Shown here piece by piece: positions 48,515 to 64,000 of a stretch of 64,000 nucleotides of DNA; the stretch's first letter is position 1; each line of letters opens with the position of its first letter. Under the pieces are notes generated by a model. The model had not been told where the DNA came from, did not search any database, and saw nothing but the letters and a program-made list of their open reading frames with translations. The position numbers and the translations under genes were made by a program. Source of the stretch: Ostreococcus lucimarinus (Eukaryota); NCBI GenBank assembly GCA_000092065.1, contig CP000592.1, one strand, 5' to 3'.

Positions 48515-48689
48515 CGCGGCCTGCGCGTCGGAGACTGACGCGACGCTTGACGACGCTTTATCCAGAGAGCCAACACCGGGAACGCGGCAGCCAGGCTTTC
48601 GGCGCGTCGGTCGCGCGAGGAGCAGGACTGGAGACGAGGAAGAGGCGACGAGTATACATTTAGCGTTCTTTAATTCGCAGCGTCTACGT

Positions 48690-50948
48690 CTACGATCTCG
48701 AGACGTAGCGGTTGCCCTCGAGCGTGAAGGTGGGTTTGGTGACGATGATGGTCTCATCGGTGTCGTCGTCGATCAAGGCAAAGTACGTCGATACCAATTC
48801 CGCCAAGCAACGGTGGAAGAGGTCGTTGGCGCGCCAGTCGCGCGCGGCGCCGAAACACGACACGCAGTCTTCGTGCGCCGCTTTCAAAGCATCACGCCAT
48901 TCGCGTTGAAACGCGACGAGTGCGTCACGAATGACGAGTGCATCAATGCTCGCGCCTTCACCGCTCCGACGGCGTCGCGAAATCGTCGTAATTCTCGGGA
49001 AGCGCTCCGCCAACGCGTGCGACACAAACGCTTTGGACTCTTCGATGAGTTTTTCTTCAAAGAAGTGCAGACTCGCGAGTTCTGTGGCGAGTTCGTCATC
49101 CTCAGCGCATCTCTCGACACCGTCATCATCGTTGAGATTCGTCAAAGAGCTTAACGTCGAGCAGATGTGATCGTACGACTTTACCAAATACGCGCTTCGC
49201 GAGCGAGGCGACGCCTTGAGCGAAGCGCACAGCTTACTCGTAACACAGTCGTACATCGACCGTCGCAAACGATCGAGAAACAAATCAACCTGATTCGTAA
49301 CGTTAAGTTCATCCGCAGAAGATGCGCCCATGCGCGAATGTGCCACTGTGGTGAGCGCGAGGACAAAGTTTGCGTATCGCTTCACGATGAAACTCGGCGA
49401 CTCTGGATTGGGCTCGAACGACTCTCGCGTGTCCTCGAGCGACTTGACGTGCGCATCACACGCGTGCTTGAACTTCGGCCAAAGTATCATGTTCAAGTTG
49501 TCGATGTACGCGTCCAGCGCGGGCACTCGGCGACGATTCATCACGCGTCTGTGGGCGTTGTTCACGCGGATGGCAATCAACAGCCCGACGGCGTCGTGCC
49601 CAGACTGCGCAACGCCTTGGGCGACGAAATCGTTGTACGCCATCAGTGGACCGGTGAAAACGATTTCAAACATTTCGCGCTCGCCTTTCCAAAATACTTC
49701 GCAAAACGCATACTCGAACGTCGCGGTGTCTATGAGCAGGCGATGCGCGCTTCGGAACAACTCCTCGTAGGCGTGCGCTTCTTGCCTCACCTTGTCCGAT
49801 TGCCGATGCACCACCAACGGAGGCTCTGTCTCTGCCGCATACATGGCACGCGCGCGATTACCAAGATCAAACAAGCTGTCGCCATTCGTCTCATCAGTCT
49901 TGGACGCACTAGAAGACGCCGGCGACGACGTGATGCCCGCGAACATTCCAGCCAAGGCGTTCGCCGCCGCCGACGCGACGTCGGTCGTCGCCGACGTTGT
50001 TGCCGTCGTCGAGGAAGTCGTGCGCGTCCTGGATGCGAGCAAAACTCGAGATCTAGGCGCTTTTGTGACGCGCTTGAGCGAATCCAAATACGAAGTCATC
50101 GCCGTTTTCAACACTTTTCCCACGACATCCGCGTAAGTGCTCTTCACCTCCCAATACACCTCTGGTCCTCGCTTACGTAGGAACTCGATCAGAGGCGCGT
50201 GTCTCGCGAGTGAATTTTCTTGAATTAACTGTACGTTCGCGCGTGGCTTCTTCAACGCCGCGAATTCACCGTACAAGAAGGCCCAAGCGCGGTCGACCGC
50301 CTTGACGCGCAGTCGCTCGAGTTCTGGCGCGACGTCGTTTACAGCGCGACCCGCGCCTTTCGATGCGGACACACTGAGATGATCCAACTTCACCTCGAGT
50401 TCGCGAACGCCTTCGACAAATCCCCCGTCACCGCCGACGAAGTCGCCGTTAAACACGGCGTTAATCAGCGACGGCGGTACCGAAAGCGCCTCCACCGCGT
50501 CGCCTAATTTTCGCTCAGCTCGCGCGCGGTTTGCACTTCGCACGCGTAAATCTTCGCTCGAACGCTGTAACTCCCTAATTTCCATCGATATACGCCCTAA
50601 ATCGTCCTGAAACGTCTTCAACGTTTGTTCCATGTCGCTCAATATCCCGTCGCACGCGTGCACTTCGCCTTGCAGTTGCAGTAAATTCTCGCACTCATCC
50701 GCGTGAGCGTCGATCGAGCGACGCTCGACGTCCACGAGTTTCATTTCGATCTCCCTCGCGCGTCGATCGAGGGATTCGAAATCACCATCATCGTCATCCT
50801 CGCCGTGCTCGTCGTCGTTTTCTCGTCGCAACAGCGCTCGAATGACTTCGTGATTGGCGTACCGCAGTAACGATGCCGACGTGGGAGTCAGCGTCGACGT
50901 GTCGTTGACGCCGCGCTCGGGTGCTCGCATCACGCTCGTACGATCCAT
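48690..50948 (-). CDS. VPS52: VPS52 (GARP complex subunit, Sac2 family)
   Basis: N-terminal coiled-coil block LQLQGEVHACDGILSDMEQTLKTFQDDLGRISMEIRELQRSSEDLRVRSANRARAERKL is typical of Vps52 (LQ..S..M..RL.NR). Full length about 750 aa is consistent. Confidence 0.7.
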   Translation of the reverse strand: MDRTSVMRAPERGVNDTSTLTPTSASLLRYANHEVIRALLRRENDDEHGEDDDDGDFESLDRRAREIEMKLVDVERRSIDAHADECENLLQLQGEVHACDGILSDMEQTLKTFQDDLGRISMEIRELQRSSEDLRVRSANRARAERKLGDAVEALSVPPSLINAVFNGDFVGGDGGFVEGVRELEVKLDHLSVSASKGAGRAVNDVAPELERLRVKAVDRAWAFLYGEFAALKKPRANVQLIQENSLARHAPLIEFLRKRGPEVYWEVKSTYADVVGKVLKTAMTSYLDSLKRVTKAPRSRVLLASRTRTTSSTTATTSATTDVASAAANALAGMFAGITSSPASSSASKTDETNGDSLFDLGNRARAMYAAETEPPLVVHRQSDKVRQEAHAYEELFRSAHRLLIDTATFEYAFCEVFWKGEREMFEIVFTGPLMAYNDFVAQGVAQSGHDAVGLLIAIRVNNAHRRVMNRRRVPALDAYIDNLNMILWPKFKHACDAHVKSLEDTRESFEPNPESPSFIVKRYANFVLALTTVAHSRMGASSADELNVTNQVDLFLDRLRRSMYDCVTSKLCASLKASPRSRSAYLVKSYDHICSTLSSLTNLNDDDGVERCAEDDELATELASLHFFEEKLIEESKAFVSHALAERFPRITTISRRRRSGEGASIDALVIRDALVAFQREWRDALKAAHEDCVSCFGAARDWRANDLFHRCLAELVSTYFALIDDDTDETIIVTKPTFTLEGNRYVSRS

Positions 50949-51068
50949 AGCGATATACGCGCACTCGCGTCGTGCGAGACGCTCGAACCAGAACGCGCGC
51001 CCTGTTTTGAGGCGTCGATGCAGATGTCTAATACTTTACACTTTCGGGCTACTACGTGAGAAGTTTCC

Positions 51069-51737
51069 TTACTCTTTTTCTACGGGCGCGGGCGCGACTT
51101 TCTTCTTCGCCTTCCCCGATGGCTTTGAATTCTTCGCCGCCGCCGCGTTCGTCGGTTTGCCCTTTGAAGAAGTCTTCTTCGCCTTGCCTTTCCTCTTACC
51201 TTTCGCCGGCGGCGCCTCGCCTCGCGCCTGGCTCAGGCGAAAGCGACGAATCTTTGCCGCCACCCCGTCCAACTCTTCGACTTCATCGTGAAAGTCATCC
51301 AACGTATCGCGATCCGCTTGTCTGGCGATTCGTTCGTTCAAGAGGGAAGGAATGTAGCCAAAGTTGCGGTTTCTCAGCAAGTCCTTGAAAGGTTTTTCGC
51401 CGTGCACCATGCGATGCCAGTTTATGTTGCGTCCAATCTCGCCCCCCGCGCCCGCACACCTGCGGCAGTTCACCGCTCCCTTGCCTTGACAAAACATGCA
51501 CTGAAATGTCTCAATCTTCGCGTTCAACGTCGCGAAATCACCTCGATCCTCCGGCTTTTGCAACTTGCCAGTGGCTTTGCAGTGCTCGCAGCGCATCGTC
51601 TTCGCGCCGCCGCAGAGCGTGCACGTTCGGTGTAACCAGTGCGCGCCGGACTCGCGCGCGGCTGCGATGACGGTGCCGACGAAGCATACCTGCGCGCACA
51701 CGCCCAGGATGCCCTTGATGTCGTCTTCACCACCCAT
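51069..51737 (-). CDS. DnaJ-type zinc-finger (4x CxxC) protein with N-terminal TM anchor and Lys-rich tail (BSD2/LQY1/CYO1-like)
   Basis: CTLCGGAKTMRCEHCKATGK...FQCMFCQGKGAVNCRRCAGAGG gives four CxxCxGxG-type motifs. One TM (ILGVCAQVCFVGTVIAAA). C-terminal KGKRKGKAKK low complexity. Confidence 0.5.
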   Translation of the reverse strand: MGGEDDIKGILGVCAQVCFVGTVIAAARESGAHWLHRTCTLCGGAKTMRCEHCKATGKLQKPEDRGDFATLNAKIETFQCMFCQGKGAVNCRRCAGAGGEIGRNINWHRMVHGEKPFKDLLRNRNFGYIPSLLNERIARQADRDTLDDFHDEVEELDGVAAKIRRFRLSQARGEAPPAKGKRKGKAKKTSSKGKPTNAAAAKNSKPSGKAKKKVAPAPVEKE

Positions 51738-51779
51738 CGATGTCGGCGTCGGGCGTCAGGTTATGCGGTGTAGTGAGGG
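51738..51779. promoter_or_regulatory. Very short (about 40-100 bp) shared 5' region of the divergent DnaJ-ZnF and PWI genes
   Basis: Start codons at 51737 (-) and 51780/51840 (+). Inference. Confidence 0.3.
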
Positions 51780-52469
51780 TTGAGATTTTCTCCGCACTTC
51801 CGCACTCGCGCGCGCTCGAGTCTTTACGCGACGAGCCGCATGAGCACGTACAGACAACCGTTCAGCCGCGGTGCCGCGGCGTTCGGGAAACGACCGAGCA
51901 GCTCATCGAGCGCCAACGCCAAGCTCGCCGAGGCGCTCAAGGTGAAAATTGACATCGACAAGGTTGATTTAGAAGTCATCAAACCGTGGATCTCGCGCGA
52001 GATCACCGCGCTGTTGGGGGTGGAGGACGAAGTTTTGATCGGCATGATCGAGGTGTTGCTAGAAGAGTGCAAGATTCACAAGAATGGCGCACACATGTAC
52101 GCGCAGTTGGAGTCGTTTCTCGAAAAGCAAACCGAAACGTTTTGCGTGCAACTGTGGGAGCTCTTGGCGAGCGCACAGGCGAACGCGGGCAAACACGGAG
52201 AGAAAGGCGTGCCATCGAAATTCATGAAGGATACCGAGGCGCAGCGCAAGCGCGAGGACGAGGCGTACGAGCGCATGAAGAAAAATCAGGAACGCGGTCG
52301 CGACGGTCGACGTTCGCAGCAGAAACCGTATGACCGGCCGCCGCGACGACATAGCAGAGATAGGGTAGGACGCGGCCAAGAGAGGCGACGGGATTCTAGA
52401 AGTCCGCCGCGGCGACGGTCGCGGTGGGGCGCCGACGGTGAGCGGAGCGACGGCAGCGACGACGCGTGA
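51780..52469 (+). CDS. SRRM1: PWI-domain protein, SRRM1/SRm160-like
   Basis: KVKIDIDKVDLEVIKPWISREITALLGVEDEVLIGMIEVLLEE...FCVQLWELLASAQ aligns closely with the SRRM1 PWI domain (VNLEVIKPWITKRVTEILGFEDDVVIEFI...ELWPLLLSAQ). RS/RD-rich tail. Start may be Met51840. Confidence 0.8.
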   Translation: MRFSPHFRTRARSSLYATSRMSTYRQPFSRGAAAFGKRPSSSSSANAKLAEALKVKIDIDKVDLEVIKPWISREITALLGVEDEVLIGMIEVLLEECKIHKNGAHMYAQLESFLEKQTETFCVQLWELLASAQANAGKHGEKGVPSKFMKDTEAQRKREDEAYERMKKNQERGRDGRRSQQKPYDRPPRRHSRDRVGRGQERRRDSRSPPRRRSRWGADGERSDGSDDA

Positions 52470-52578
52470 AGGAGGCGAGACACTCATCGAGGTTGAACCG
52501 CGGCAAAACTCAAGATGGAGAAAATTTGTAAAATGTTGAATTCATTATTTCATCAAGTTCATCGCGCACGAGTACAAT

Positions 52579-54597
52579 CTACGCTGCCACGGTTTTCGGC
52601 CACTTGTCGTGAATCCAGCTCTTGAACTTTGCACACGCCGGCAAGAAACCTCCGTTTTCGGCACTATCGGCGATGACCTCGTCGCCATGGACGAATAGCA
52701 TGCGCATGTCCAAATCAACATCGCTCGTAGATGTGGCTTCGGCTAGAGATTTTTCATAAGCCTCACGTTCACTCTTGACAAGTTCTTCGACGTCTTCGCC
52801 GAGTTCTTTGACCCAAGCGTCGTGCGACAAAGGCTTGCCAGTGAGATTATTCACCAACCCGAGGAAGCCCGGCTTGCCGCTGCCGGCACGCCAGTACTCG
52901 GCTTCGAGCGTTGGACCGACTTTTGGGTTATCGACAATGTATCCCTCGGTGCGGAAGAAATGCTCTCGAGTTTGGTGCACGGCCATCTCTGCGAACACGT
53001 ATCCGTGGTAGTATGCGGACGACTCGTCGGCCAAGATGTGCGGCACGCTCATCAACGGACGACCGCTGAAACCTCCTTGAATCTTTTCTTCAATCTCATC
53101 AGCGACGCGGCAAATGTTTTCCGTCGTCAATTGATCTTCCGAAAGCTCGTACAAAGCCTTCTCAAAGTACGGCACGGCGATCATCCCGCGCAGCGCCATG
53201 ACCTTATAAGGGTGCTTTTGTCGAATATTTCGTTCAATCAACTCCCAAGGAATGACGTTGCCCTTGCGATCCTTCGCGTATCGCGCTTGCCACGCAGCGT
53301 CTTCGCACAAGGCGTCGAGAAACATTGATTGTGTCTCCGCCAAGGCGACAGAGAACGGCGCCCGCTCTTGCGCAAACACCGGAGAACCTTGAACGATGTT
53401 GGCAAAGTGCGCGGCGTGTCCGCCTTCGTGCATCAGCGTCGTCAAGGCGGTGTTACCGCTACCAATTTCATCAGGCGTGGCGAGCGAGGTAAAGTTCGAC
53501 TCAGACGGCACCCACGTGCCATCAGTTTTCTTGAACGGCGGCGTCGGCCAGTGGCAAAAACCGTTGGGATACTTGCCGACGCGATCGCATAAATCCAGTC
53601 GCATAGTCGTGCCTTTGTAACCAATCTTCATCGCCCCGAACGAGCGTCCCCAGACCTCGGGAGCGTTTTCAAATGGATAATACGGATCAATCAACTGCGT
53701 CAACTCTCCGCTGAGCGCGTACGCTGTGTTCCATCCCTTGGTCGCGTCTTCGCCCTTTTCCGCCTTGAGCCTGTCGCGCGCGGCGTGCATGAGCGGTCGC
53801 GTAGCTTCCTCCAAGCCATCGAGCATCTCGAAGCACTTCTTCTTGTTGAAGCCTTCCGCTTGCGTCACCTTCATGTCGTAAAAATCCTCGAAACCGAGCG
53901 CGCGCGCGAAGCGGTTGCGCTCGGCGATGATGGCTGGGAAGCCGTTGTCGCACAAAAAGGGACCGTTCGCGCGAAGCGTCTCCCAGCAACTCTTGCGCAC
54001 GCACTCCTCATCGCTCGAGCGAATTTTCGTGCGCAACACCGTGGGCGTGGCCGAGACGAACTTGCCGTCCACATCGGTGTACCCGAGCTCTTGTTTATTG
54101 CGCGCCGCTTGCAACGCGTTCTCCTTCGCGATGGCGGATTCGCGCAACGCCACGGCTTCTTTGGACTCGACGATGTAGCACTTGAGCGTTTTTTCGATTT
54201 GCTCCAGCACAATCCTTTGGTCATCCGTGACGTCTTTGGACGCCAACAACTCGCGCGTCTTCGCCAACGTCTCAGCGTCGCCCATGAACGTCTCCAGCGC
54301 GTTGAACGACTTCGTCAGCGCCTCCACGTCGTTCCCTCGCAGGTTCATCTTCGTCGCCCAAAAGTTATCCTCGAACGTCTTGTGCTTGGCCAGGTATTCA
54401 TCGTTGAAAGCGTCGATGAAGGACGCCGGCGTCGTCGTCGCCGAGTTCGCCATGACGTGACGTCCTCGTCCTCTCGCGGCGACGTTTCCGACGACGGCGC
54501 GCTCGCGAGCGCGTCGAGCGAGCGTCGAGGCCGAGCGCGTCGAGGTCGAGTTCAACGCCGATCCGCGATGCGTGATCACTCGAGCGATGACGCGCAT
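52579..54597 (-). CDS. Zinc metallopeptidase, M3-like (neurolysin/oligopeptidase-fold gluzincin) with presequence
   Basis: HEGGHAAHF...(about 25 aa)...ALAETQSMFLD matches the M3 HExGHxxH...E.PSQ.xEN arrangement; about 600-aa mature length. ORF runs to 55002; start trimmed to Met54597 (the 48 aa before MANSATT look like a targeting peptide). M2/M32 relatives not excluded. Confidence 0.55.
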   Translation of the reverse strand: MRVIARVITHRGSALNSTSTRSASTLARRARERAVVGNVAARGRGRHVMANSATTTPASFIDAFNDEYLAKHKTFEDNFWATKMNLRGNDVEALTKSFNALETFMGDAETLAKTRELLASKDVTDDQRIVLEQIEKTLKCYIVESKEAVALRESAIAKENALQAARNKQELGYTDVDGKFVSATPTVLRTKIRSSDEECVRKSCWETLRANGPFLCDNGFPAIIAERNRFARALGFEDFYDMKVTQAEGFNKKKCFEMLDGLEEATRPLMHAARDRLKAEKGEDATKGWNTAYALSGELTQLIDPYYPFENAPEVWGRSFGAMKIGYKGTTMRLDLCDRVGKYPNGFCHWPTPPFKKTDGTWVPSESNFTSLATPDEIGSGNTALTTLMHEGGHAAHFANIVQGSPVFAQERAPFSVALAETQSMFLDALCEDAAWQARYAKDRKGNVIPWELIERNIRQKHPYKVMALRGMIAVPYFEKALYELSEDQLTTENICRVADEIEEKIQGGFSGRPLMSVPHILADESSAYYHGYVFAEMAVHQTREHFFRTEGYIVDNPKVGPTLEAEYWRAGSGKPGFLGLVNNLTGKPLSHDAWVKELGEDVEELVKSEREAYEKSLAEATSTSDVDLDMRMLFVHGDEVIADSAENGGFLPACAKFKSWIHDKWPKTVAA

Positions 54598-55394
54598 GCG
54601 ACACGAGGCGGTGTGTGACGATCTCGATGACGACGGGACGACGCGCCTCTCATCCAGCGAGACCCCGCAGACGTCGTCGCCGACGCTGGCGCGGGCACCG
54701 CGCGCGCGATGACGCCGCCGGCGTCCGTCGATGGCGACGACGTGCGCCAAGACACCGACGACGTCGTCATCGCGCGTGCGCTGCGCGCGACGCTCGTGCA
54801 CGTCTGCACCGCGCGCGGGTCGTTGAAGTCGTGCTGACCGAGCGAAGTTCCGAGACGCGTGTTCGGGGGTAAATCGGCGCCCGCAGGCGACGACTCGCGC
54901 TTGAGACGGGCGATTCGAGGGAAATCGTGGCGCGATTACATGGAGCTCACGCGACGGATCGCGATCGAGGAAGCGGAGCGCGGGAAGATTGAAATCACTC
55001 AAAAGGGCGAGGCGGTGTCGCCGCCGAGCACGTTCAGGGGACCGATTCGATTGCGATTGCGACGGACGGCAACGGTGAACATTGGTGACGGCGAAGTTAA
55101 AGTCGAAGGTGCAGCGTCGCAGCCGTCGTCGAAGAGGCGTAAACGAAACGTTTCGCCAAACTAACGGTCGCTCGTGAAGGCTCGAGCGGAAACGGCGACG
55201 CTCCGTCGCGCGCGCTCGACGCCCGATACGCCGTTAGAGTTCACCGATGCGGTCGGCAAATAGAATTGTAATACCGATTTTCATGATACATCGCTTGAAC
55301 AAGTTCAGCCTTAGCGACCTCGGACGCGGTCAAAGACGTGTGCGATTGTACAATAGACAAAGATTATATCCGATTGCTTGACGTTCGAAGTACT

Positions 55395-56165
55395 CTAAAC
55401 ATAATTCGTTGTTTCATAGGAAGGAGTAGGAAAATCATAGCAGCGGGCCATCCAGTTTGCAGGCGGTGACCAGCCTGTCACCACCGCATGGTGATCTCTC
55501 CAGTCTCTAGGTTCCCAGCCGGGGGAGAGCTTCAAAGAACGAATATATTCCAGTGTGTCCAGTGCTTCCACATTGCGAAGCTTTTCGTCATCTCTTTTTT
55601 CCACCAACACGCAGAATTCATTTACTTCCGCTACGCCCTCGCCGGCTTTTCTTTCTATTTTGTACATGCCGGCTCTGCATTGGAGGCCCATATTGAAAAG
55701 CTTAGCCTCGTTGACTTGCTGACAAACTTTCTTAAATGCCTCTACCATTTGCGGCGGTGTGTTTCGCACCGGGCCGCTTACAGAGCAGCACAAGCATCGG
55801 ATCGTTTCACAAATGGGCCACCCCCCCATGTCCTGTAGTGCGCCGTTCAAGATATCTACAAGCTCGTTCGCCACGGGTGAGTTTCTCGACCAATCTGGGT
55901 CCCGGGGACGCTTGGAAGGCACTTCAGCCAATTGTGCAACGTGCCTTTGGTACAAAGGCACGTCGCACGCGACTGAATCCGTCATCACGGAGTGCGAAGC
56001 GGGACGGTGGGGCGCCTTTATGTGGGTATGGGTTTCCAGCAGGGGAGCGATGTGCCAGGATGGTACATCGCGCGACACGAAGTCGATCGGGATTTTCTTC
56101 TGACATTGAAGAACTGCGAGCAGGTCGGGGTGATAGAATGCTGGCGCGCTTAGCGAACCACCCAT
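55395..56165 (-). CDS. Hypothetical protein with a putative N-myristoylation signal (MGGSLSA); Cys-rich; lower GC
   Basis: Clean 256-aa ORF divergent from the giant ORF; no family recognised. Confidence 0.4.
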   Translation of the reverse strand: MGGSLSAPAFYHPDLLAVLQCQKKIPIDFVSRDVPSWHIAPLLETHTHIKAPHRPASHSVMTDSVACDVPLYQRHVAQLAEVPSKRPRDPDWSRNSPVANELVDILNGALQDMGGWPICETIRCLCCSVSGPVRNTPPQMVEAFKKVCQQVNEAKLFNMGLQCRAGMYKIERKAGEGVAEVNEFCVLVEKRDDEKLRNVEALDTLEYIRSLKLSPGWEPRDWRDHHAVVTGWSPPANWMARCYDFPTPSYETTNYV

Positions 56166-56405
56166 GACGCGCTGAGATTTCTTTTCTCGTGCACGCGCGC
56201 GTTTTGTTTCATTCGTGCCTGTGCGTCGCTCGCGTCGCGGAGTGATGCTCGTGTCGTCCGTCTTTCGACGGGTCTAGGGTTTCAGTGCTTCGTCGAATCT
56301 GGGGAAAAACCATTTTGCTTGAGCACGGCGAGACTTTCAAGACGCACCTGACAGAGCGGTGCGCGCAGGCCACGCAGCTCGCAGTGGGGGCGCGTCTCGT
56401 CGTGA

Positions 56406-59400
56406 GTGACGATGTCGGAGGCGGTGCTCACGGCGAGTGAACCCGTCGGGCCGGTGCAGGCGCCGGCGGACGCGGCGGCGGCGCCGGCGAGGGAGACGAT
56501 TGGGGCTTTTTCGCTCGCGCGGGCGAAGAGTTCGGTGCGGAGACTGAGCCAGTCGAAGCGGGAGCGGCGCGGGGAGACGACGAAGACGCGGTTCACGGAG
56601 GTGACGACGGTGGTGGGCGCGCGGGAACGCGGGAGCGATGGTGCGGCGGATGAGGACGTCGGTGGGTCGGCGCGGGAGAGAGACGACGCGAGACGTTTGC
56701 GAAAAAGAGAATCGGTCAAGGTGAACATGCTTCGCGCGAGGACGTTCAAGGCGATGAATGGGGGCGGCGGCGCGAGCGGGCGCGGCAACGGTAGGGTGTT
56801 CGTGGACGTGGAGACCGGGGATAGTTTCGTGTCCACGGGGGATCTCACGAGCGTGGATGAGAAACGGTTCCGCGAACTCGACGCCGAGGGCGTGTTGGAG
56901 GTGGTGAAACTCGTCGAGGGAGGCGAGCAGGTGCTGATGAGTTCGGTGCAACCGTCGCTGTTGGAGAATTTGTCCACTCTTCCAGTGCAGGTGGAAGTCG
57001 GATGGGCGGGTGATTCCTGGCGCGCGGTGCTTCGAATGTTGATGATCGCGTCGTACGACGACGTCAATCGACTTCGATTTACTCGAGGTTTGGACGCCGC
57101 GATGCACTTTCTCAGCGGCGCCGAATCCTTCTTGCTCGGATCCGTCATCTCGGCGTACGAGTCTGGAAACACCAGTGATCTCAAGCGATTGCTTCGTCAT
57201 GCCTTTTTGAATCGCAACGTCAGTCGAGTGCTCGTGCAGCAAATGTCTCGTTACGACATTTTCTGGCACACGCACTGGTCGGTGAAATTTAACAGAATGA
57301 TGGACGCGTTCGGCACCGTTCCCGTGATCGGATTCACCGGTTTCCCATCCTCTGAAAACTTCCAAAACACGCGAAACTTTGTCGTTGGCTCCTTCTTCCG
57401 CGTGTTCCTCGGTCAAGGCAACTGGATCACTCGTGTTCTCACCGGACGCGAGGCGCTCATCACCGACGATCCGAACGTCGTCGCGCAAAATCTCGCCGCG
57501 GAGACGAACAGTTTCGAGGCATCCAACCTCGCACAACACGGTGCGTTTGTCGGACGCATGAAGACGAACGAATTCCGCGCCAATCATCGGTTACCGACGG
57601 ATGAGAGCGTCGTTCGTACCTTTGCCGTGTCGCCGTCGAGCACGCTTGTGAACAACGGCGTCGTGCACGTGGTGTCGCAGTTGGCGAGACATTGGCACAG
57701 CATGCTCGACCAACCGTACGGTAACTTTGCGCATCAACGCCAAGAGCAGCTGAATCCGTTGGAGACGCTTCGATTCCACATGCCCGTCGTCTTGTTTACT
57801 CTCGCCAATTTGCGAGGCTTGAATGCGTGGGACTCCACCGTGTTGGCGCCCGTGCTCAAAAAGTTGCAAAACATCCCGCCGGTGGCCAACGCGGTCATGA
57901 TCAAGCCCATCGTTCGTATGATTTCTAAGGAGCTCGCCGCGAACGTGTGCGGCGGAAGTAAGATAATTTACGATCCCTTTAAGAGTTGGTTGAAAGCCAT
58001 CGAGAGGAGTCTCACGCGGTTGGACGAGGAAGCGCAACAAGTCGCGTTGATCTGCAGCGCGGTTCAGAATGGCGTCGCAATTGGACACAGCGCGATCGCG
58101 CAAAGTAATTTCATCGCGCCGACCGAAGCGCAAATGAAGCAGGCTGTGCACTCTGTGTGTCTCGGCGAGCCCGTCAGTACGAAGTGCGGCGTCACTGAGG
58201 TGCAAGTCAAATCGGCTCTCAATTTGCTCGCGCCGAGAGACAAGCGCATGCTCATTCAACTCGTAAAGAGCGGTTACACAAATTCTAAAGCTGTCGTGTT
58301 ACTCACATCGAGAGCTTGCACACTCCTCAGCCGCAACATCAGACGGGAAGCGCTGTCCAAGACAATCGTCAAGATGTCAAAGGGTGACGAAGTTGCGAAC
58401 TTTGACACGAAAAAGGCGTACTGGGTCAAGGATCAGTACGGCGTCGGCCGCGTGTATATTTTTGAACGCGAGAATACGGACGGAACCTGCACGTTTACGG
58501 ATCGCGCCACGCGCGCAGAGCACTGCTTCGACTTTTCAAAGTCCACACTCAGCGCGTACAAGTATGTCGAAGTTGGCGAGTCGATCGTTCGCGCGCAAAA
58601 GGCGTTCATGACGATCGAATTAGACCACGGCTCGGTTTTCTCTTACGCTTCATTCATGGAGTTGTCCTTTTTGCGTTCGCCACTTCGACAACTGCTGGTA
58701 TTGTCACAATTCCACTGCGAAGAAATCGACGATGCTCGTCTCAATATCTTATCAGCCATCAAGCACTCTGCGACGCGAACCGAAGTGACCGTGAAAGAGC
58801 TGAAACTTGGTCAGCGATACTTTGTCTACGAGGAGAAATCGTACACGCCTTTCTTGTTCGACGAAGCTTTGCAAAGTGATAAGGCGCGCTTGTCGGCGCT
58901 CAAGATGAAGAAGATTGTCACCGTGCCGCCGCAGTCGATGATTGTCATCGGAGGCGGTCCGACTGGTTTGCTCACAACCCTTCACTGCCTCGAAAACGTC
59001 TTGTTAAGCGATGGCGTCATGCGCATCTATGAATCGCGCGATGCTTTCACTCAGGCTGGCGCAACTTTCGAAAGAGCGCAGATTGTTCGACTGGACGCGC
59101 GCTGGATCGCATGTCTTCGTTTCCATCTCGGTACAATTTACGAGGATGTTTTCATTCCAACCCCGGGTGATACGAGCTCACACTACGGCAACGTGCTTCC
59201 GTCGCAAGGCTTCATCGAGATCACCATCAAGGATTTGGAGAATATGATGAACGTGGGCGTTTCGCAACGTCTCTCTCGTGGATTGCTGACGCAAGATACG
59301 AATAGCGGCGCGCAGTACGACGTACGACAAAACAAGCTGATCAAAACGGGCAAGGCGCTCAAGATTACTGACTTGATTCTGCGTAAAGTCGATAACGAAG

Positions 59401-62400
59401 GATCTCCATCCGACGAACCCTTCTCTTGGAAGGTGGTCGACGTCGTGTACAACAAATCTTACTTGGCGACGGATCTCAAACTCGGTGAAGTTTATTCCGT
59501 GTACATCTTGGATCAACAGCAATGCTTACCGTATCGACTTGTCGGTGTCAATATCGACAAGGAATTCTATGAATTCAAGTCAATTCATTCCGCGTACGAC
59601 GACTTTGCGTGCTTTGCAAATAAGCTGCCGTCCGTCTATCACAAGGATACAAAGGCACACTCTTTGGTGGAAAGTTTGGTCATCGAATCCGTCATTCGCG
59701 GAAGCGACGGAAAGTATGTGCAAGAGGTGCTGCCTTACAACGAGATTGCCTCACAGAAGTTTGAGCTGGACATCGAGCACTACCACGTCGTCGAGGCCAT
59801 CGGTAAGCCCGCTGGCAGTCCGGTGCACTTTGCAATCACGCAGACCGAGCCGTACGGCGTGGCTTGTCTCGCGGGACTCAAGGTGAGCCAAGGCATGCAC
59901 AACTTTGGTAACTCGAGATGGCGCAGCAGAGTGGTCGATGACATTCGCAGTCACACGGATCAGAACACTCGCATCGTCGGTGACTTTACCAAGGTTGTCA
60001 ACTCTCAGAAAATCACGAAGAAGATGCTCAAATTCATCACCAAGGATGTCGATTGGCGTCTCCACTTTGAGCGTCTCGTCGGGGATTGTGGATTTTCTGC
60101 AGAAATGCCAGAAATTTGGCAGACGATGTGCACGCTCGTCAAACAACACACAAAGCAAGCTCCCTACGTCCGACGTCATCTGCAGACGCGCTTCTTCGAG
60201 ACTGGCGACAACTTCTACCTCGGTATGGAGTTGACGAGAGAATACGACGAATGGAAAACGAAGACAGTTGATTCATTGGTCAAGTCTACGCTCACGTGGA
60301 ACTCCAAGCCGAAGAACGCACAAGATATTAAGAAGAAAGAGGACAAGTTACGAAACCTGAAGGGCGCTCTCACCAGATCGATCGACCGTCTCTGGTACGA
60401 CGCAACTCTCGAGACAATTCGCTTCGGCGACGTGTACAACCCAGGTGGACAGCAGTTCATTCCTCGTCTTTATTTCATCGATTCGTTGACTCCGGTCACT
60501 CTTGGGTCTTTGCCTGGATTCGAGAGCTTTAGAGTCGTCGACCAACCGAACGACCGTTACGATGTCATCATGACTGGTGTGTCGGGCGCCGTCGTGCGCA
60601 ACGTCGAAGGTTACGTTTCCAAGATGTCCAACTCCACCATGGTGTATCGAGGAAGTAACCTCACTCGAGCGCCGAACGGAAACACCGAATCAAAGGTTTC
60701 GATGGCGACGTTCCCCGTGGCGCACTACGTCAATCACCGCACGATGCGCGTGCGCTCGGACAGCAAAGATAAGGGATACGTCTTCGCTTTCTGCGGCGAT
60801 GAACAGAGCACCCCGCACTTTATGCGTTACTCTGGTCTTACCGGTGCGTGCATCAACAGTATGCTCTTCAACAACTTTATCGGCGACGCGATTATCGGCG
60901 TAGCGTTCCAAGATCGCTTCCGCACGTACTCGAGCTCGACCAACTGGTCGAACGGTGAAGTCGTCACGCGCGGTACCGGCGCCAACTACGGCGTCGATGG
61001 TTTCCTTCGACCGTCGTTTCCGTACAAGGAGGGCGTCCGCTATCTGTATTCGAAGTACATCGAGTGTCGCGAGAGCGATAATGACGTCGCTCAACTGCTG
61101 ACGGATGACTGGAAGGTGAAGTTCTGTTCGGCTCTCATCCCCAGAGGCCTCGAAGACAATCAATCGTACCTCTCCGCGCTGAGCGAGCAAATGTCTCACG
61201 TCATTTACGAAGTCTTCATGGAGGAGGTTGGCAAGGATCCCAGCTTCACCGCCATGGACTTGTGCGATCGTCTCGCCGAGGCGAACGACAAGGTCGGCGA
61301 GAGCGACGAACCGTGGCGAGAACTTCTCGAACGCGCAAATATTTCCGACGACACGAAAAAGATGCTCACGGAAAAACACGTGTGGATCGCGAACAGCTTG
61401 GATGCATTGACGCAAGAGCTCATCGAGTACGCCTCATTCTTGCGAGAAAATGGATTCCGTTTCACGAGTTACGCGGAAAAACAGCCGAATCCGGTCGACT
61501 CCGTCATCGATAGCACCTCTGTCGAAACGCAAGCTTTCGCCGAAGGTCTCACCATGAGCGCGGCGCTCGCCGCCGCGGCGCTCGTCTTGTCGACTTCGAA
61601 TCCGCTTAGTGCCGCCGCGCTGTCCGCGTTCACGCCGATCGTCGCCTTCGGTACCATCACCGGGGCGAGTCGATACAAGAACAGAAACGAAGAGTGGCTC
61701 GTCGCGTACAAGGACAATTTGTTCAAGCAGGCTGAACGAGGCGCGTACGACGTCATGTCGCGCGATGCTCAAAAACAGTCTCTGCACGCGAGTCCGTACG
61801 TGAACGACTTGCGATCCATGATGGATGCGTTCGTCAAGATGTGCGCGTATTACAACTTCCCCGAGCCCAAAGAATTGTTTCACCACTTCGAAGCCTTCGT
61901 GGAAGACGTGCACGGCGACAGAGCGTGCTCTGAATTCGACGAGTATCTCGTGTCGGTGGCCATAGCGGAGACGTTTTACAAGAGCGCGTATCTTCAAGAT
62001 CACCTCGTGAAGATGCACGAAGTCGTGGGAGACATGATGTACTGGCGGTCTCAGAGCAGTGAACCCGGAACGGCTGTTGATATGCAGGCGCAGTGCTTAT
62101 TCGAGCGCGTCGTCGTGCTTCGTCGCGTGCTCGAAAAGTCTATTCGTCGCGGTCACATCAGATTTGGCTTCATCAGAACGGGCAATTACTCCAAGTCTCA
62201 CGTCGGTGACCTCGTCAAGTTCTGGATAAACATCCTGATGTACCCAATCTTGCTCTTTCGTCGTGATGACTTGTCGCCCTCAAACGCTCGCGCCTCGGCC
62301 AAGGCGTGGTACAAGCCGGCGAACATCGCCATCACGGAGACGGCGAGGGACGCGCGAGCGCTCGCGGAGCGCGCGAGTCACGCGAAATTGGCTCGCGCAG

Positions 62401-63215
62401 CCTTTGATCTGGAGAGCTTCACCATCGCGTCGAACGAGAGTTACACCGCGAGTTTCATCATTTTTTCGGCGCTTCTCTCATTCTGCACGGGTATCGTCTT
62501 CACGATCGGTAACATCGCCGCTCGCGTCAAGGTGCAAAAGTGGTCCACCGACTTGACCTCGGCGGGTTCGTACTCGTTCGGTCTCGTCACCCCGCTCTCC
62601 GCCATCTTGGCCCTGTTCTGGTTATCTCGAGTCCAGTTCCACATCATTCGACTCGCGTTGCTCCTCAACACGAAGATGAAACCGTTATCCGACGAACCGC
62701 GCGGCAAGTTGAAGAGTTGCATCAAAATGGCGCTCGCCCAGGGTCTGTTGACGCAAGTGAGAATGTGCATCGCTCTCGCGACCGCCGTCGCCCTTCCGTG
62801 GGCGCTCTGCGTGCGTGAAGCCTCTACTTTCGGTCTCAACTTCACCGACCGATCTGAGAACGTTCCCTTCTACATCGCCTCTGTCGCCGTCATCGCCTCC
62901 GTCGTCTCCTGGTTCGTCTTCTTTTGGAAGGAGTACGTCGTTCGCTACAACCTCCCGTCCAAGCTCGGGCAACACGTCTGCGCCGCCTTTCTGGACGACA
63001 TCGAACACAACCGACAAACCGTCGACATCCCTCACTCTTCCACCCTCGATCACCACCGTCTCGAACGCACGACGTGGGAATACGCCGCTCGGGTCTTCAT
63101 TCGCAAGTATCGATTCGACGCCGTCTTCGGCGCCGACCGCTTTGGAAGTCTCCTCCAGTACGTCCAATCCGGGTGCGTCGTCTCCGCCCGCGGCGAATCG
63201 CCGATGTCCGTCTGA
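56406..63215 (+). CDS. Giant (2269 aa) single-exon hypothetical protein: central flavoprotein-monooxygenase-like core with dinucleotide-binding GxGxxG motif and C-terminal multi-TM anchor
   Basis: Uninterrupted 6.8-kb ORF, lower GC than genome-typical genes. A Rossmann FAD/NAD site MIVIGGGPTGLLTTLHCLE is followed by MRIYESRD. About 650 aa downstream lies a GD...G.TG.(C)IN motif (FCGDEQSTPHFMRYSGLTGACINSMLF) like the PHBH-type GDAAH...GxGxN block. Four to five predicted TM helices span aa 1900-2150. No family recognised for the other ~1500 aa. Confidence 0.6.
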   Translation: MTMSEAVLTASEPVGPVQAPADAAAAPARETIGAFSLARAKSSVRRLSQSKRERRGETTKTRFTEVTTVVGARERGSDGAADEDVGGSARERDDARRLRKRESVKVNMLRARTFKAMNGGGGASGRGNGRVFVDVETGDSFVSTGDLTSVDEKRFRELDAEGVLEVVKLVEGGEQVLMSSVQPSLLENLSTLPVQVEVGWAGDSWRAVLRMLMIASYDDVNRLRFTRGLDAAMHFLSGAESFLLGSVISAYESGNTSDLKRLLRHAFLNRNVSRVLVQQMSRYDIFWHTHWSVKFNRMMDAFGTVPVIGFTGFPSSENFQNTRNFVVGSFFRVFLGQGNWITRVLTGREALITDDPNVVAQNLAAETNSFEASNLAQHGAFVGRMKTNEFRANHRLPTDESVVRTFAVSPSSTLVNNGVVHVVSQLARHWHSMLDQPYGNFAHQRQEQLNPLETLRFHMPVVLFTLANLRGLNAWDSTVLAPVLKKLQNIPPVANAVMIKPIVRMISKELAANVCGGSKIIYDPFKSWLKAIERSLTRLDEEAQQVALICSAVQNGVAIGHSAIAQSNFIAPTEAQMKQAVHSVCLGEPVSTKCGVTEVQVKSALNLLAPRDKRMLIQLVKSGYTNSKAVVLLTSRACTLLSRNIRREALSKTIVKMSKGDEVANFDTKKAYWVKDQYGVGRVYIFERENTDGTCTFTDRATRAEHCFDFSKSTLSAYKYVEVGESIVRAQKAFMTIELDHGSVFSYASFMELSFLRSPLRQLLVLSQFHCEEIDDARLNILSAIKHSATRTEVTVKELKLGQRYFVYEEKSYTPFLFDEALQSDKARLSALKMKKIVTVPPQSMIVIGGGPTGLLTTLHCLENVLLSDGVMRIYESRDAFTQAGATFERAQIVRLDARWIACLRFHLGTIYEDVFIPTPGDTSSHYGNVLPSQGFIEITIKDLENMMNVGVSQRLSRGLLTQDTNSGAQYDVRQNKLIKTGKALKITDLILRKVDNEGSPSDEPFSWKVVDVVYNKSYLATDLKLGEVYSVYILDQQQCLPYRLVGVNIDKEFYEFKSIHSAYDDFACFANKLPSVYHKDTKAHSLVESLVIESVIRGSDGKYVQEVLPYNEIASQKFELDIEHYHVVEAIGKPAGSPVHFAITQTEPYGVACLAGLKVSQGMHNFGNSRWRSRVVDDIRSHTDQNTRIVGDFTKVVNSQKITKKMLKFITKDVDWRLHFERLVGDCGFSAEMPEIWQTMCTLVKQHTKQAPYVRRHLQTRFFETGDNFYLGMELTREYDEWKTKTVDSLVKSTLTWNSKPKNAQDIKKKEDKLRNLKGALTRSIDRLWYDATLETIRFGDVYNPGGQQFIPRLYFIDSLTPVTLGSLPGFESFRVVDQPNDRYDVIMTGVSGAVVRNVEGYVSKMSNSTMVYRGSNLTRAPNGNTESKVSMATFPVAHYVNHRTMRVRSDSKDKGYVFAFCGDEQSTPHFMRYSGLTGACINSMLFNNFIGDAIIGVAFQDRFRTYSSSTNWSNGEVVTRGTGANYGVDGFLRPSFPYKEGVRYLYSKYIECRESDNDVAQLLTDDWKVKFCSALIPRGLEDNQSYLSALSEQMSHVIYEVFMEEVGKDPSFTAMDLCDRLAEANDKVGESDEPWRELLERANISDDTKKMLTEKHVWIANSLDALTQELIEYASFLRENGFRFTSYAEKQPNPVDSVIDSTSVETQAFAEGLTMSAALAAAALVLSTSNPLSAAALSAFTPIVAFGTITGASRYKNRNEEWLVAYKDNLFKQAERGAYDVMSRDAQKQSLHASPYVNDLRSMMDAFVKMCAYYNFPEPKELFHHFEAFVEDVHGDRACSEFDEYLVSVAIAETFYKSAYLQDHLVKMHEVVGDMMYWRSQSSEPGTAVDMQAQCLFERVVVLRRVLEKSIRRGHIRFGFIRTGNYSKSHVGDLVKFWINILMYPILLFRRDDLSPSNARASAKAWYKPANIAITETARDARALAERASHAKLARAAFDLESFTIASNESYTASFIIFSALLSFCTGIVFTIGNIAARVKVQKWSTDLTSAGSYSFGLVTPLSAILALFWLSRVQFHIIRLALLLNTKMKPLSDEPRGKLKSCIKMALAQGLLTQVRMCIALATAVALPWALCVREASTFGLNFTDRSENVPFYIASVAVIASVVSWFVFFWKEYVVRYNLPSKLGQHVCAAFLDDIEHNRQTVDIPHSSTLDHHRLERTTWEYAARVFIRKYRFDAVFGADRFGSLLQYVQSGCVVSARGESPMSV

Positions 63216-63814
63216 CGGCCGCGCGCGCGTCCTCCACCGGCCGGCGTCGTCACGTACACTATTCATTGATACTCATAATACTCATAATAATCATCGTTGG
63301 TATACTTTCGCGTTCGCGTCCATCCTTCGCGTCGTCTCTCTCTCGTCTCTCGCGTTTGGATAAAACGCCACGGATTCATAATAATCTCCGCACACGCATC
63401 CGCATCCGCACACGCCGACGCCCCGCCCGTCGATCGGTCCGTCCATGCATAAAGGATCCTCCGCAGGCTTTCCACTCAAATCGACTGTGTGTCACGCAAG
63501 AGGAGTGCTTGGGGTTCCATTATTTTCACAGAGGACAAACTACGACTGGTCGTTTGTCGTCCAACACGAACACTGCAGAAGGAACTTTGACGCAAGAGTC
63601 CGGAGCCGTCCGGAGCGTCGAGGGGGAAGTCTGCGGTGCCGTGCTGGGCGATGAGTGATGGCCGTAGGGTGTCGTGAAGGTGCACAGGAAGGATGCGAAT
63701 GCTAGTGACTTTTCGGGTTTAGTACGACCCAGAGAACCTAGGGTAGGGTGTAATAAGTATTAGCTAGTCGGTCGGTTACGGCACTTCTCCCGAAGCGCCT
63801 CCCTCCCTCATGCG

Positions 63815-64000
63815 TAGGGTTTAGGGCTTTGGTTTAGGGTTTAGGGTTTAGGGTTTAGGGTTTAGGGTTTAGGGTTTAGGGTTTAGGGTTTAGGGTTTAG
63901 GGTTTAGGGTTTAGGGTTTAGGGTTTAGGGTTTAGGGTTTAGGGTTTAGGGTTTAGGGTTTAGGGTTTAGGGTTTAGGGTTTAGGGTTTAGGGTTTAGGG
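63815..64000 (+). repeat. Telomere: (TTTAGGG)n array, G-strand 5'->3' toward the window end (right chromosome end), preceded by about 600 bp of subtelomere
   Basis: From 63832 perfect TTTAGGG units run to the end of the window (at least 24 units); degenerate units TAGGGTTTAGGGCTTTGG lie at 63815..63831. Confidence 0.95.

What the first reader, a model, noticed from the sequence alone, without database searches (positions are those of the whole stretch)
56406..63215. Giant 2269-aa single-exon subtelomeric ORF with a split flavin-monooxygenase-like core and C-terminal membrane anchor
This is the largest ORF in the window by a factor of two, sits about 600 bp from the telomere, and has a clearly lower GC (roughly 50%) than the surrounding genes. 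It carries an unmistakable dinucleotide-binding motif (VIGGGPTGL...E). It also has a distant GD...GLTGACIN block in the arrangement of PHBH-type flavoprotein hydroxylases, but the two halves are about 650 aa apart instead of about 300. A further ~850 aa lie N-terminal and 4-5 TM helices C-terminal. I know of no described family with this architecture; it could be a lineage-specific membrane-bound oxidoreductase or a laterally or virally acquired gene.
Basis: partly seen in the sequence, partly recalled or inferred. Interest (0 to 1): 0.75.

Follow-up and report, generated by a model that had tools for sequence, protein, structure and literature searches.

The report
Giant membrane-anchored flavin monooxygenase-like algal protein
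The 2,267-residue open reading frame next to the telomere is a real, selectively constrained Ostreococcus lucimarinus gene whose centre folds like a PHBH/MICAL-type FAD monooxygenase expanded by large insertions and tethered by C-terminal membrane helices; it belongs to a widespread but undescribed family in marine algae and shows no sign of recent viral or foreign origin.

The parts
56166..56411 (.). Divergent intergenic/promoter region shared with the upstream gene A4S636 (55395-56165, minus strand). Similarity to the L014/L001-type loci stops at 56388, 24 nt before the ATG. A telo-box-like TAGGGTTT lies at 56275-56282.
56412..63215 (+). Complete single-exon CDS (2267 aa plus stop) = XP_001420717.1 / UniProt A4S637, 'predicted protein', O. 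lucimarinus CCE9901.
   Evidence: dN/dS 0.19 against L015. The 7,363-nt contig L006 from run SRR1179203 is 100% collinear with 56115-63477.
56412..57008 (+). aa 1-199: poorly conserved, charged, low-complexity N-terminus with no signal-peptide-like hydrophobic stretch.
   Evidence: Conservation profile and hydropathy scan; dN/dS 0.51
57009..58898 (+). aa 200-829: conserved N-terminal domain(s) of unknown fold, most conserved at aa 320-480 (motifs NLAAE, HRLPTDES, HWH, GNFAHQR). No detectable homology to any Pfam family or PDB sequence.
   Evidence: dN/dS 0.17
58899..61211 (+). aa 830-1600: expanded group A flavoprotein monooxygenase (PHBH/MICAL-type) module.
58950..58967 (+). GGGPTG dinucleotide-binding motif (aa 847-852). 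The beta2 acidic residue E874 is at 59031-59033.
   Evidence: 96-100% conserved over 112 sequences. Weak Rossmann-family Pfam hits. afoD alignment.
59286..59768 (+). aa 959-1119: beta-rich insertion between the first FAD-binding segment and the 'DG'-position strand. Boundaries are approximate.
   Evidence: DSSP of the AF2 model, pLDDT mostly 85-95; variable sequence
59784..59828 (+). aa 1125-1139, HVVEAIGKPxGSxVH: the strand-turn at the position of the group A 'DG' motif. The canonical Asp is replaced by Ile or Thr.
   Evidence: The alignment to the canonical motif was made by eye, not by structural superposition.
60003..60458 (+). aa 1198-1349: largely helical insertion interrupted by the invariant LQTRFFETGDNFYLGME beta-hairpin. 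Boundaries are approximate.
60795..60857 (+). aa 1462-1482, GDEQSTPHFMRYSGLTGACIN: the GD motif (FAD ribityl/pyrophosphate contact in group A enzymes).
   Evidence: G1462, D1463, Q1465, T1477, G1478 and N1482 are 100% conserved
61533..61661 (+). aa 1708-1750: conserved hydrophobic helical hairpin, a possible re-entrant or membrane-associated segment.
62454..62924 (+). aa 2015-2171: four predicted transmembrane helices at positions conserved in full-length relatives.
   Evidence: Kyte-Doolittle scan of 9 aligned relatives; dN/dS 0.33
62925..63212 (+). aa 2172-2267: C-terminal tail with a conserved TWEYxARxF..YRFDxVFxADRF motif.
63216..63447 (+). 3' flank shared with other lineages (92-100% identity). 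It ends at ...GTCCATG, the start codon of the downstream neighbour gene in L014, L015 and L017.
63448..63814 (.). Unique subtelomeric sequence that replaces the ancestral downstream genes. The part up to 63582 is also present in the environmental contig L042.
63815..64000 (+). Telomere: (TTTAGGG)n, degenerate from 63815 and perfect from 63833 to the window end.

Best explanation
This is a real, vertically inherited nuclear gene of the O. lucimarinus lineage. It encodes a giant, C-terminally membrane-anchored, multi-domain protein.

Shown: its central 770 residues adopt the group A (PHBH/MICAL-type) flavoprotein monooxygenase fold. The FAD-binding fingerprints are near-invariant and are interrupted by about 375-450 residues of inserted beta-rich and helical subdomains. 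This module is preceded by a conserved ~630-residue region of unknown fold. It is followed by a hydrophobic hairpin and a four-helix membrane anchor.

Inferred mechanism: with no signal peptide and an even number of TM helices, the N-terminal bulk probably faces the cytosol on an endomembrane. The core would bind FAD non-covalently. Reduced flavin would react with O2 to form a C4a-(hydro)peroxyflavin. That intermediate would oxygenate a membrane-proximal substrate, either a lipid or isoprenoid (as in squalene epoxidase or KMO-type anchored enzymes) or a protein side chain (as in MICAL).

Because the canonical 'DG' Asp is missing, the way the flavin is reduced is uncertain. It could be direct NAD(P)H, or delivery by another domain or partner. 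The substrate is unknown.

The protein belongs to an undescribed family, conserved end to end, in diverse marine eukaryotic algae including diatoms.
For: - ORF and annotation.
- Purifying selection over every region, strongest in the core (omega 0.06).
- Full-length homologues at 41-49% identity with the same layout.
- 129 clusters by profile search and 527 representative clusters by exhaustive HMMER.
- Fragmented genomic copies are collinear with full-length ORFs.
- AF2 model with 112 sequences, pLDDT 83.1, pTM 0.79.
- All 50 listed Foldseek PDB hits (of 85 at E<=1e-3) are PHBH-fold monooxygenases or halogenases.
- Motif conservation.
- Conserved TM positions.
- GC3 typical of the host.
- The gene's dS between L014 and L015 (0.266) is close to that of flanking PigN (0.289).
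Against: - No sequence-profile match to FAD_binding_3 or any FPMO Pfam family reaches threshold. Only the Rossmann segment scores weakly.
- The fold assignment rests on a predicted structure, and identity to solved enzymes is 9-13%.
- The model has low-confidence loops at core 87-103 and 335-357.
- The canonical DG Asp is absent, so direct NAD(P)H use is not assured.
- FAD binding, catalysis, membrane topology, localisation and substrate are all untested.
- Transcription in O. lucimarinus is only suggested by a transcript-sized contig whose library type I could not verify.
Confidence: 0.7

Rival explanations
1. FAD-dependent, but not a classical single-component NAD(P)H monooxygenase. It could be a two-component-type oxygenase that receives reduced flavin, as group E/F enzymes (styrene monooxygenase, halogenases) do. 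Or it could be a reductase or oxidase acting on membrane lipids, like geranylgeranyl reductase. The N-terminal domain might act as the electron-delivering or substrate-presenting partner.
For: - The canonical DG Asp is replaced by Ile or Thr across the family.
- A strongly conserved extra N-domain is always fused.
Against: - The halogenase WxWxIP motif is absent.
- No reductase-like domain (flavin reductase, FNR, cytochrome b5 reductase) is detected anywhere in the protein.
Confidence: 0.25
2. One reading: a laterally or virally acquired gene. It would be foreign DNA parked in a subtelomere, recognisable by low GC.
For: - Patchy distribution. Below the >=90% Ostreococcus clusters, the next relatives are <=49% identical over the full length (<=61% in the core). 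The neighbouring PigN gene, by contrast, has a 69-73% tier that I take to be other Ostreococcus clades, although these clusters carry no names.
- No labelled O. tauri, Micromonas or Bathycoccus orthologue appeared.
- The gene lies in at least 5 different flank contexts in closely related lineages.
Against: - GC3 of 0.70 and GC of 0.553 are within the host range.
- No relative in 2.9 M viral contigs and no close fold in BFVD.
- dS equals that of the flanking gene between lineages that share the internal locus.
- The internal locus is the ancestral one, being syntenic in lineages 88% identical.
- In a rough NJ tree the Ostreococcus sequence is not nested among the diatom-labelled sequences.
- The telomeric position is a derived truncation.
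Confidence: 0.12
3. The 7-kb gene is itself a mobile cassette or part of a mobile element. That would explain why it appears with unrelated flanks in near-identical genomes.
For: - Similarity to other loci stops within 24-274 bp upstream and 71-232 bp downstream of the CDS.
- There are at least five flank combinations among copies 91-99.9% identical.
- About 12 independent assemblies of the L001-type locus all end 380-740 bp upstream of the gene.
Against: - No terminal inverted or direct repeats, or target-site duplications, at the boundaries.
- No transposase, integrase or reverse-transcriptase domain.
- The boundaries differ between contexts, so there is no fixed element end.
- In the loci fetched, L001-type and L014-type contigs come from different samples, so this looks like one copy per lineage and not paralogues (sample ids).
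- Intergenic spacers in this compact genome are only about 100-300 bp, so any viable rearrangement breakpoint must hug a gene.
- The 3' break in CCE9901 is a simple truncation at the neighbour's ATG.
Confidence: 0.06
4. Annotation or assembly artefact: several ordinary genes fused by unrecognised introns, or a non-functional relic ORF.
For: No domain annotation exists, and the size is extreme for a genome with short genes.
Against: - The same N-domain, core and TM layout is found as a single uninterrupted ORF in at least 8 distant relatives on separate contigs.
- All regions are under purifying selection.
- Environmental contigs reproduce the ORF at 99.85-99.9% identity.
- Split copies elsewhere are collinear pieces of the same gene.
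Confidence: 0.02

Closest known systems
MICAL family [F-actin]-monooxygenases (MICAL1/2/3)
   Different: In MICAL the FPMO is N-terminal and is followed by CH, LIM and bMERB domains, none of which is detected here. MICALs are soluble, whereas this protein has 4 TM helices. Sequence identity is 11-13%. The core here is about 280-300 residues longer than the crystallised MICAL monooxygenase domain (about 480-490 residues; target lengths). The canonical DG motif is degenerate.
p-Hydroxybenzoate hydroxylase-type aromatic hydroxylases (group A FPMOs; Pfam FAD_binding_3, PF01494), e.g. PHBH, PnpA, HspB, MHPCO
   Different: The module is about 770 aa against about 390 aa, with motif spacings of 284 and 332 aa. 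From my own knowledge of the PHBH numbering the canonical spacings are about 150 and 127 aa. No Pfam match reaches threshold. The DG Asp is absent. The module is embedded in a 2267-aa membrane protein.
Membrane-anchored group A FPMOs: kynurenine 3-monooxygenase (C-terminal TM anchor) and squalene epoxidase
   Different: Those enzymes are about 450-575 aa with one or two anchoring helices and no large extra domains. There is no sequence-level similarity.
Flavin-dependent halogenases (CmlS, CndH, PltA, Bmp2, tryptophan halogenases)
   Different: The defining WxWxIP motif is absent from the protein. The catalytic Lys could not be mapped.

Membership tests
Group A flavoprotein monooxygenases (PHBH fold) | N-terminal beta-alpha-beta dinucleotide-binding motif GxGxxG, with an acidic residue at the end of beta2 | tested here: met
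   GGGPTG at aa 847-852 (96-100% conserved) and E874 (95%) over 112 sequences. The model shows strand 13-17, helix 21-36, strand 41-44.
Group A flavoprotein monooxygenases (PHBH fold) | GD motif (GD...P....G.G.N) contacting the FAD | tested here: met
   GDEQ(S/A)TPHFMRYSGLTGACIN, with G1462, D1463, T1477, G1478 and N1482 100% conserved.
Group A flavoprotein monooxygenases (PHBH fold) | DG motif (dual FAD / NAD(P)H role) | tested here: inconclusive
   The equivalent strand-turn reads HVVEAIGKP. The Gly is conserved (92%), but the Asp position is Ile (70%) or Thr (14%).
Group A flavoprotein monooxygenases (PHBH fold) | Overall three-dimensional fold | tested here: met
Group A flavoprotein monooxygenases (PHBH fold) | Sequence-profile membership (Pfam FAD_binding_3 or related models above the gathering score) | tested here: not met
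   No FPMO family reaches threshold in the window protein or in 8 relatives. Only sub-threshold Rossmann-segment hits appear: Glu_dehyd_C E 1e-4, DAO 5e-4, NAD_binding_9 0.014. The PDB profile search found only afoD, E 0.32.
Group A flavoprotein monooxygenases (PHBH fold) | Binds FAD and catalyses NAD(P)H- and O2-dependent oxygenation | not testable with these tools
   Needs purified protein.
MICAL family | FPMO domain followed by calponin-homology, LIM and C-terminal bMERB/coiled-coil domains | tested here: not met
   No CH, LIM or bMERB (DUF3585) hit in Pfam scans of the window protein and 8 relatives. Here the FPMO module is central, not N-terminal.
Flavin-dependent halogenases | WxWxIP motif near the flavin, plus a catalytic Lys | tested here: not met
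   No W.W.IP, and not even a W.W, anywhere in the 2267-aa protein.
Kynurenine 3-monooxygenase / squalene epoxidase | Sequence membership in the respective families, about 450-575 aa, with 1-2 anchoring helices | tested here: not met
   No Pfam or NCBIfam hit. The architecture is four to five times larger, with 4 TM helices plus a hairpin. Only the fold is shared.
Mobile genetic element (transposon or retro-copy) | Defined element ends (TIR/LTR/TSD or poly(A)) and/or a transposition enzyme | tested here: not met
   No terminal repeats at 56388 or 63286/63447. The boundaries vary between contexts. No transposase or RT domain.

The most novel reading that the evidence does not exclude
The family defines a new class of giant membrane-tethered flavoenzyme in marine algae. 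In this reading the invariant ~630-residue N-terminal region is a second, as yet unseen functional module (substrate-presenting, regulatory or electron-delivering) that works with an expanded MICAL/PHBH-type oxygenase lacking the canonical NAD(P)H 'DG' motif. The whole would be a self-contained redox machine acting on a membrane lipid or on a protein or cytoskeletal target, with no characterised counterpart. A secondary strand: the locus marks a recurrent chromosome-breakage and rearrangement site in Ostreococcus populations.
Probability: 0.2. Interest if true: 0.7.

Novelty: new variant of a known kind. Interest (0 to 1): 0.45.

Why it matters
Group A flavoprotein monooxygenases are among the best-studied oxygenases. 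This family shows the fold embedded in a 2,200-2,500-residue membrane protein, with insertions that roughly double the catalytic module and a large partner domain that has no detectable homologue.

The family is abundant in marine metagenomes and in what appear to be metatranscriptome assemblies (the CCE9901-type 90%-identity cluster alone has 477 member sequences). It is under strong constraint (core omega 0.06). It is shared by prasinophyte and diatom lineages, and it is invisible to Pfam and NCBIfam. Defining it would remove a sizeable piece of 'dark' protein space from ocean datasets. It would also give flavoenzymologists a new scaffold, possibly with a non-canonical way of reducing the flavin.

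For genome biology, the locus is a clean natural example of terminal truncation with a new telomere, and of repeated rearrangement around one gene in a very compact eukaryotic genome.

Tried and rejected
- **Direct Pfam, NCBIfam and PDB sequence searches of the whole protein.** Nothing reached threshold.
- **Profile searches against PDB** with the core (A2), the full length (A1) and a deeper N-domain alignment (A4). These gave only Rossmann-segment noise: afoD E 0.32, 2i0z E 0.46, DAHP synthase E about 1. The N-domain stays unassigned.
- **First AF2 run with 9 sequences.** It gave pLDDT 55 with the FAD segments unresolved, and I discarded it in favour of the 112-sequence run.
- **AFDB Foldseek search.** The library was not installed, so I obtained no UniProt-labelled structural neighbours.
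- **Viral origin.** The IMG/VR pattern scan and the BFVD fold search were both negative.
- **Recent horizontal transfer between Ostreococcus species.** I suspected this because neighbour-gene clusters of L014 and L001 showed no CCE9901 member. I rejected it after dS(window-L014) came out at 0.019, the only comparable flanks were 92-96% identical, and dS(L014-L015) of the gene equalled that of PigN. The PigN homology search did not return a labelled CCE9901 orthologue and so did not help.
- **Mobile cassette.** No terminal repeats, and the boundaries vary.
- **Interstitial CCCTAAA in L002 as a sign of a telomere.** It is only 2.5 copies, so I did not pursue it.
- **Literature searches** for the accessions, the SRA run, MICAL in diatoms, and Ostreococcus flavin monooxygenases. 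Nothing relevant. One search (Ostreococcus + subtelomeric) returned 30 papers that I did not read; none of the 12 listed titles concerns this locus or family.
- **Halogenase assignment.** No WxWxIP motif.

Full report
**1. What is in the sequence**

The ORF listing gives an uninterrupted ORF at 56406..63215 (+), 2269 codons from a GTG. The first ATG is at 56412. The 2267-aa product from there is identical to XP_001420717.1 / UniProt A4S637, 'predicted protein' of Ostreococcus lucimarinus CCE9901, on a 538,963-bp chromosome record. Close relatives start at the same ATG.

The window ends in a plant-type telomere. TTTAGGG repeats are degenerate from 63815 and perfect from 63833 to 64000, which places the array 600 bp after the stop codon.

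VIGGGPTGL is at aa 845-853 and GDEQSTPHFMRYSGLTGACIN at aa 1462-1482, 615 residues apart. A Kyte-Doolittle scan finds four strong hydrophobic helices at aa 2015-2171 and a hydrophobic hairpin at aa 1708-1750.

Two parts of the observation are overstated:
- The next-largest ORF has 1477 codons, a ratio of about 1.5, not 2.
- The ORF's GC is 55.3% (52-54% in the middle), not about 50%. Several neighbouring genes have 55-57% GC. Its GC3 of 0.70 lies inside the window's range of 0.59-0.79.

**2. It is a real gene under selection, not a fusion or a relic**

I compared the window gene with a lineage that carries it at 90% nucleotide identity (L015). dS is 0.27 and dN/dS is 0.19 overall. By region, dN/dS is:

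| Region | dN/dS |
|---|---|
| Low-complexity N-terminus (aa 1-199) | 0.51 |
| N-domain (aa 200-829) | 0.17 |
| Core (aa 830-1600) | 0.06 |
| Linker (aa 1601-2000) | 0.23 |
| TM region and tail (aa 2001-2267) | 0.33 |

Eight distant relatives (41-49% identical, 1887-2474 aa) align end to end with the same layout. They sit as single ORFs on 7-8-kb contigs that carry nothing else, with GC from 27% to 55%. These contigs look like assembled mRNAs, although I could not verify the library types.

On genomic contigs of other algae the gene is broken into collinear pieces at recurring positions (core positions ~100, ~302 and ~331). That pattern is what introns would produce. Examples are L012, which also carries PsbU and a protein kinase, and L013.

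A 7,363-nt contig from run SRR1179203 is 100% collinear with window 56115-63477. This is consistent with an intronless transcript, but I could not establish what kind of run it is.

**3. What the protein is**

No Pfam or NCBIfam model and no PDB sequence reaches significance, for the window protein or for its relatives. Only the Rossmann segment gives weak hits: Glu_dehyd_C 1e-4, DAO 5e-4, NAD_binding_9, and afoD at E 0.32.

A first AlphaFold2 model of aa 830-1600 from 9 sequences was poor (pLDDT 55). A profile search then recovered 129 clusters. A 112-sequence alignment from these gave a good model, with pLDDT 83.1 and pTM 0.79.

- **Foldseek against the PDB** returns only PHBH-fold flavoenzymes among its 50 listed hits (85 hits at E<=1e-3). 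These include PnpA, MICAL1/3, Mpy16/Bmp2/PltA/ChlB4 halogenases, aklavinone-11-hydroxylase, TetX and PHBH. E-values run from 7e-7 to 2e-4, and target-normalised TM is about 0.4-0.54.

So about 300-320 of the 771 core residues form the canonical fold. The rest are insertions. By the model's secondary structure these are a beta-rich block (about aa 959-1119), a largely helical block (about aa 1198-1349) and a further beta subdomain (about aa 1370-1415).

Across 112 sequences:
- GGGPTG is 96-100% conserved, and the beta2 acid E874 is 95% conserved.
- The following FERAQIVRLDxRWIAMLRYHLG segment is nearly invariant.
- In the GD motif, G1462, D1463, Q1465, T1477, G1478 and N1482 are 100% conserved.
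- At the place of the group A 'DG' motif the family reads h-h-E-A-(I/T)-G-K-P. The glycine is kept but the aspartate is not.
- The halogenase WxWxIP motif is absent.

The mode of flavin reduction is left open.

**4. The other two thirds**

Residues 200-829 are conserved. The stretch aa 320-480 is 60-70% identical across relatives that are 41-49% identical overall. They match nothing, even with a 42-sequence profile against PDB sequences.

The C-terminal hydrophobic helices fall in the same alignment columns in all full-length relatives: a hairpin near positions 1717/1741, and four helices near 2024, 2063, 2121 and 2163.

There is no N-terminal signal-like hydrophobic segment. From this I infer, without having tested it, that the bulk of the protein faces the cytosol and is tethered to an endomembrane by the C-terminal bundle.

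**5. Distribution and origin**

An exhaustive HMMER search of 1.84 billion cluster representatives with the core profile finds 527 proteins at E<=1e-3 and 213 at E<=1e-30. All of the top 150 are family members or fragments.

The only source names are O. lucimarinus and three diatoms: Amphora coffeiformis, Cylindrotheca fusiformis and Ditylum brightwellii. In a rough NJ tree the Ostreococcus sequences group with unlabelled sequences, including one from a 27%-GC organism. The diatom-labelled sequences lie in other clades.

No relative was found in 2.9 million viral contigs, and there is no close fold in BFVD.

Below the >=90% Ostreococcus clusters, the next relatives are <=49% identical over the full length. 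The neighbouring PigN gene, by contrast, has a 69-73% tier (unnamed clusters that I take to be other Ostreococcus clades). No labelled O. tauri, Micromonas or Bathycoccus orthologue appeared.

This patchiness is compatible with repeated loss or with an old transfer. I could not search those genomes directly. Recent acquisition is not supported:
- GC3 is host-typical.
- Between two lineages that share the same internal locus, the gene's dS (0.266) equals that of the flanking PigN gene (0.289).

**6. The 'subtelomeric' position is derived**

In L014, L021, L028 and L038 (gene 98.7% identical to the window), and in L015, L016, L029 and L032 (about 90% identical), the gene lies inside a chromosome. 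Upstream are PigN, an ankyrin protein and a NUP1-like gene. Downstream are an apyrase, an S1-domain gene, dCMP deaminase, HisIE, Usp and ORC1/Cdc6. The two groups are syntenic at about 88% identity on both sides, so this is the older arrangement.

- **Upstream.** CCE9901 shares nothing with them beyond 24 nt before the ATG.
- **Downstream.** Similarity runs to ...GTCCATG at about 63447. That ATG is the start codon of the next gene in L014, L015 and L017. The window then switches to about 370 bp of unique sequence and the telomere.

The environmental contig L042 is 99.85% identical to window 46412-63582 and ends there. So the truncated arrangement exists in nature and is not an assembly artefact. 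L017 is 99.9% identical to the window upstream and across the gene, but continues into L014-type downstream sequence. This indicates polymorphism, or possibly a chimeric assembly.

A third arrangement has the gene followed by cysteine synthase, pseudouridine synthase and LHC genes. It recurs in about 12 assemblies, all of which stop 380-740 bp upstream of the gene. L025/L027 and L026 carry yet other flanks.

There are no terminal repeats or transposition genes, and the boundaries differ from case to case. I therefore read these as ordinary rearrangements whose breakpoints must fall in the very short intergenic spacers. Their number around one gene remains unexplained.

**7. Mechanism, with the status of each step**

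*Shown:*
- The gene is real and constrained.
- The core has a group A FPMO fold in a good-confidence model.
- The FAD fingerprints are conserved.
- The hydrophobic C-terminal helices are conserved.
- The family is widespread.

*Inferred from established flavoenzyme chemistry:*
- FAD is bound non-covalently.
- Reduced flavin reacts with O2 to give a C4a-(hydro)peroxyflavin, which oxygenates a substrate.
- Membrane tethering suggests a lipid or isoprenoid substrate, or a membrane-proximal protein substrate. The analogies are squalene epoxidase and KMO on one side and MICAL on the other.

*Open:*
- Whether NAD(P)H reduces the flavin directly. The canonical DG Asp is missing, as in the two-component enzymes.
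- What the N-domain does.
- The substrate and the compartment.

**8. Verdict**

- The structural interpretation (an expanded PHBH-type flavoprotein core plus a membrane anchor, with no described family) is supported.
- The evolutionary interpretation (lineage-specific, foreign or viral, marked by low GC and subtelomeric position) is not supported.

This is a new architectural variant of a well-known enzyme fold, and it defines an unannotated family in marine algae. It is moderately interesting. I rate novelty as 'new variant of a known kind' and interest at about 0.45.

Noticed in passing
window 63216-63814 (junction at ~63447); loci L014, L015, L017, L042: CCE9901 and the environmental contig L042 lose similarity to related lineages at the ATG of the downstream neighbour gene. 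They continue with ~370 bp of unique sequence and then the telomere. This looks like a terminal truncation or rearrangement with a new chromosome end that exists in natural populations.
   Followed up: yes
loci L001-L004, L018-L020, L023, L031, L033, L036, L041; L025/L027; L026; L014-L016: The same single-copy gene (91-99.9% identical) occurs with at least five unrelated flank combinations in Ostreococcus metagenome contigs. About 12 independent assemblies of one arrangement all break 380-740 bp upstream of the gene, where their sequences are only 81-94% alike. That could reflect a variable or repeated, possibly subtelomeric, region.
   Followed up: partly
window 56275-56282 (also 2311-2318): There is a telo-box-like TAGGGTTT in the 246-bp divergent promoter between A4S636 and the giant gene. 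It is one of only two non-telomeric occurrences in 64 kb (0.22 expected by chance). L026 has CCCTAAACCC in the equivalent upstream region, and L002 has CCCTAAACCCTAAACCC about 5.6 kb downstream of the gene's stop codon.
   Followed up: no
L005 1-192 and whole locus: P0003 is the closest non-Ostreococcus relative of the core among the full-length relatives (61% identity). It comes from a 27%-GC eukaryote, where it is an intronless 2429-aa ORF downstream of a tail-anchored SNARE-like gene fragment. The organism is unidentified.
   Followed up: no
L012 (154-kb contig) and rows P0122/P0123 (both on one 109-kb contig): Some algal genomes appear to carry two paralogues of the family on one contig. 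Intron positions at core positions ~100, ~302 and ~331 recur across many fragments, which suggests lineage-specific conserved introns.
   Followed up: partly
window-L014 and L001-L014 comparisons of the CDS: Between very close lineages dN/dS is high: 0.56 at dS 0.019, and 1.09 at dS 0.004. Between more distant lineages it is 0.19. This is the usual excess of slightly deleterious polymorphism at short divergence, or relaxed constraint on the N-terminus and TM regions.
   Followed up: no
BFVD hits A0A5J6VKC3 (Megaviridae environmental sample) and A0A7D3V5L1 (Fadolivirus kinase), plus many 60-90-aa phage proteins: Short (55-165-column) structural matches are seen, probably to one of the small beta subdomains inserted in the core. 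This hints that the insertions are common small beta-barrel modules and not novel folds.
   Followed up: no
L002 12726-12765: There is a (GGCAGTC)n microsatellite about 5.5 kb downstream of the gene's stop codon in the L001-type locus, at the end of several contigs.
   Followed up: no
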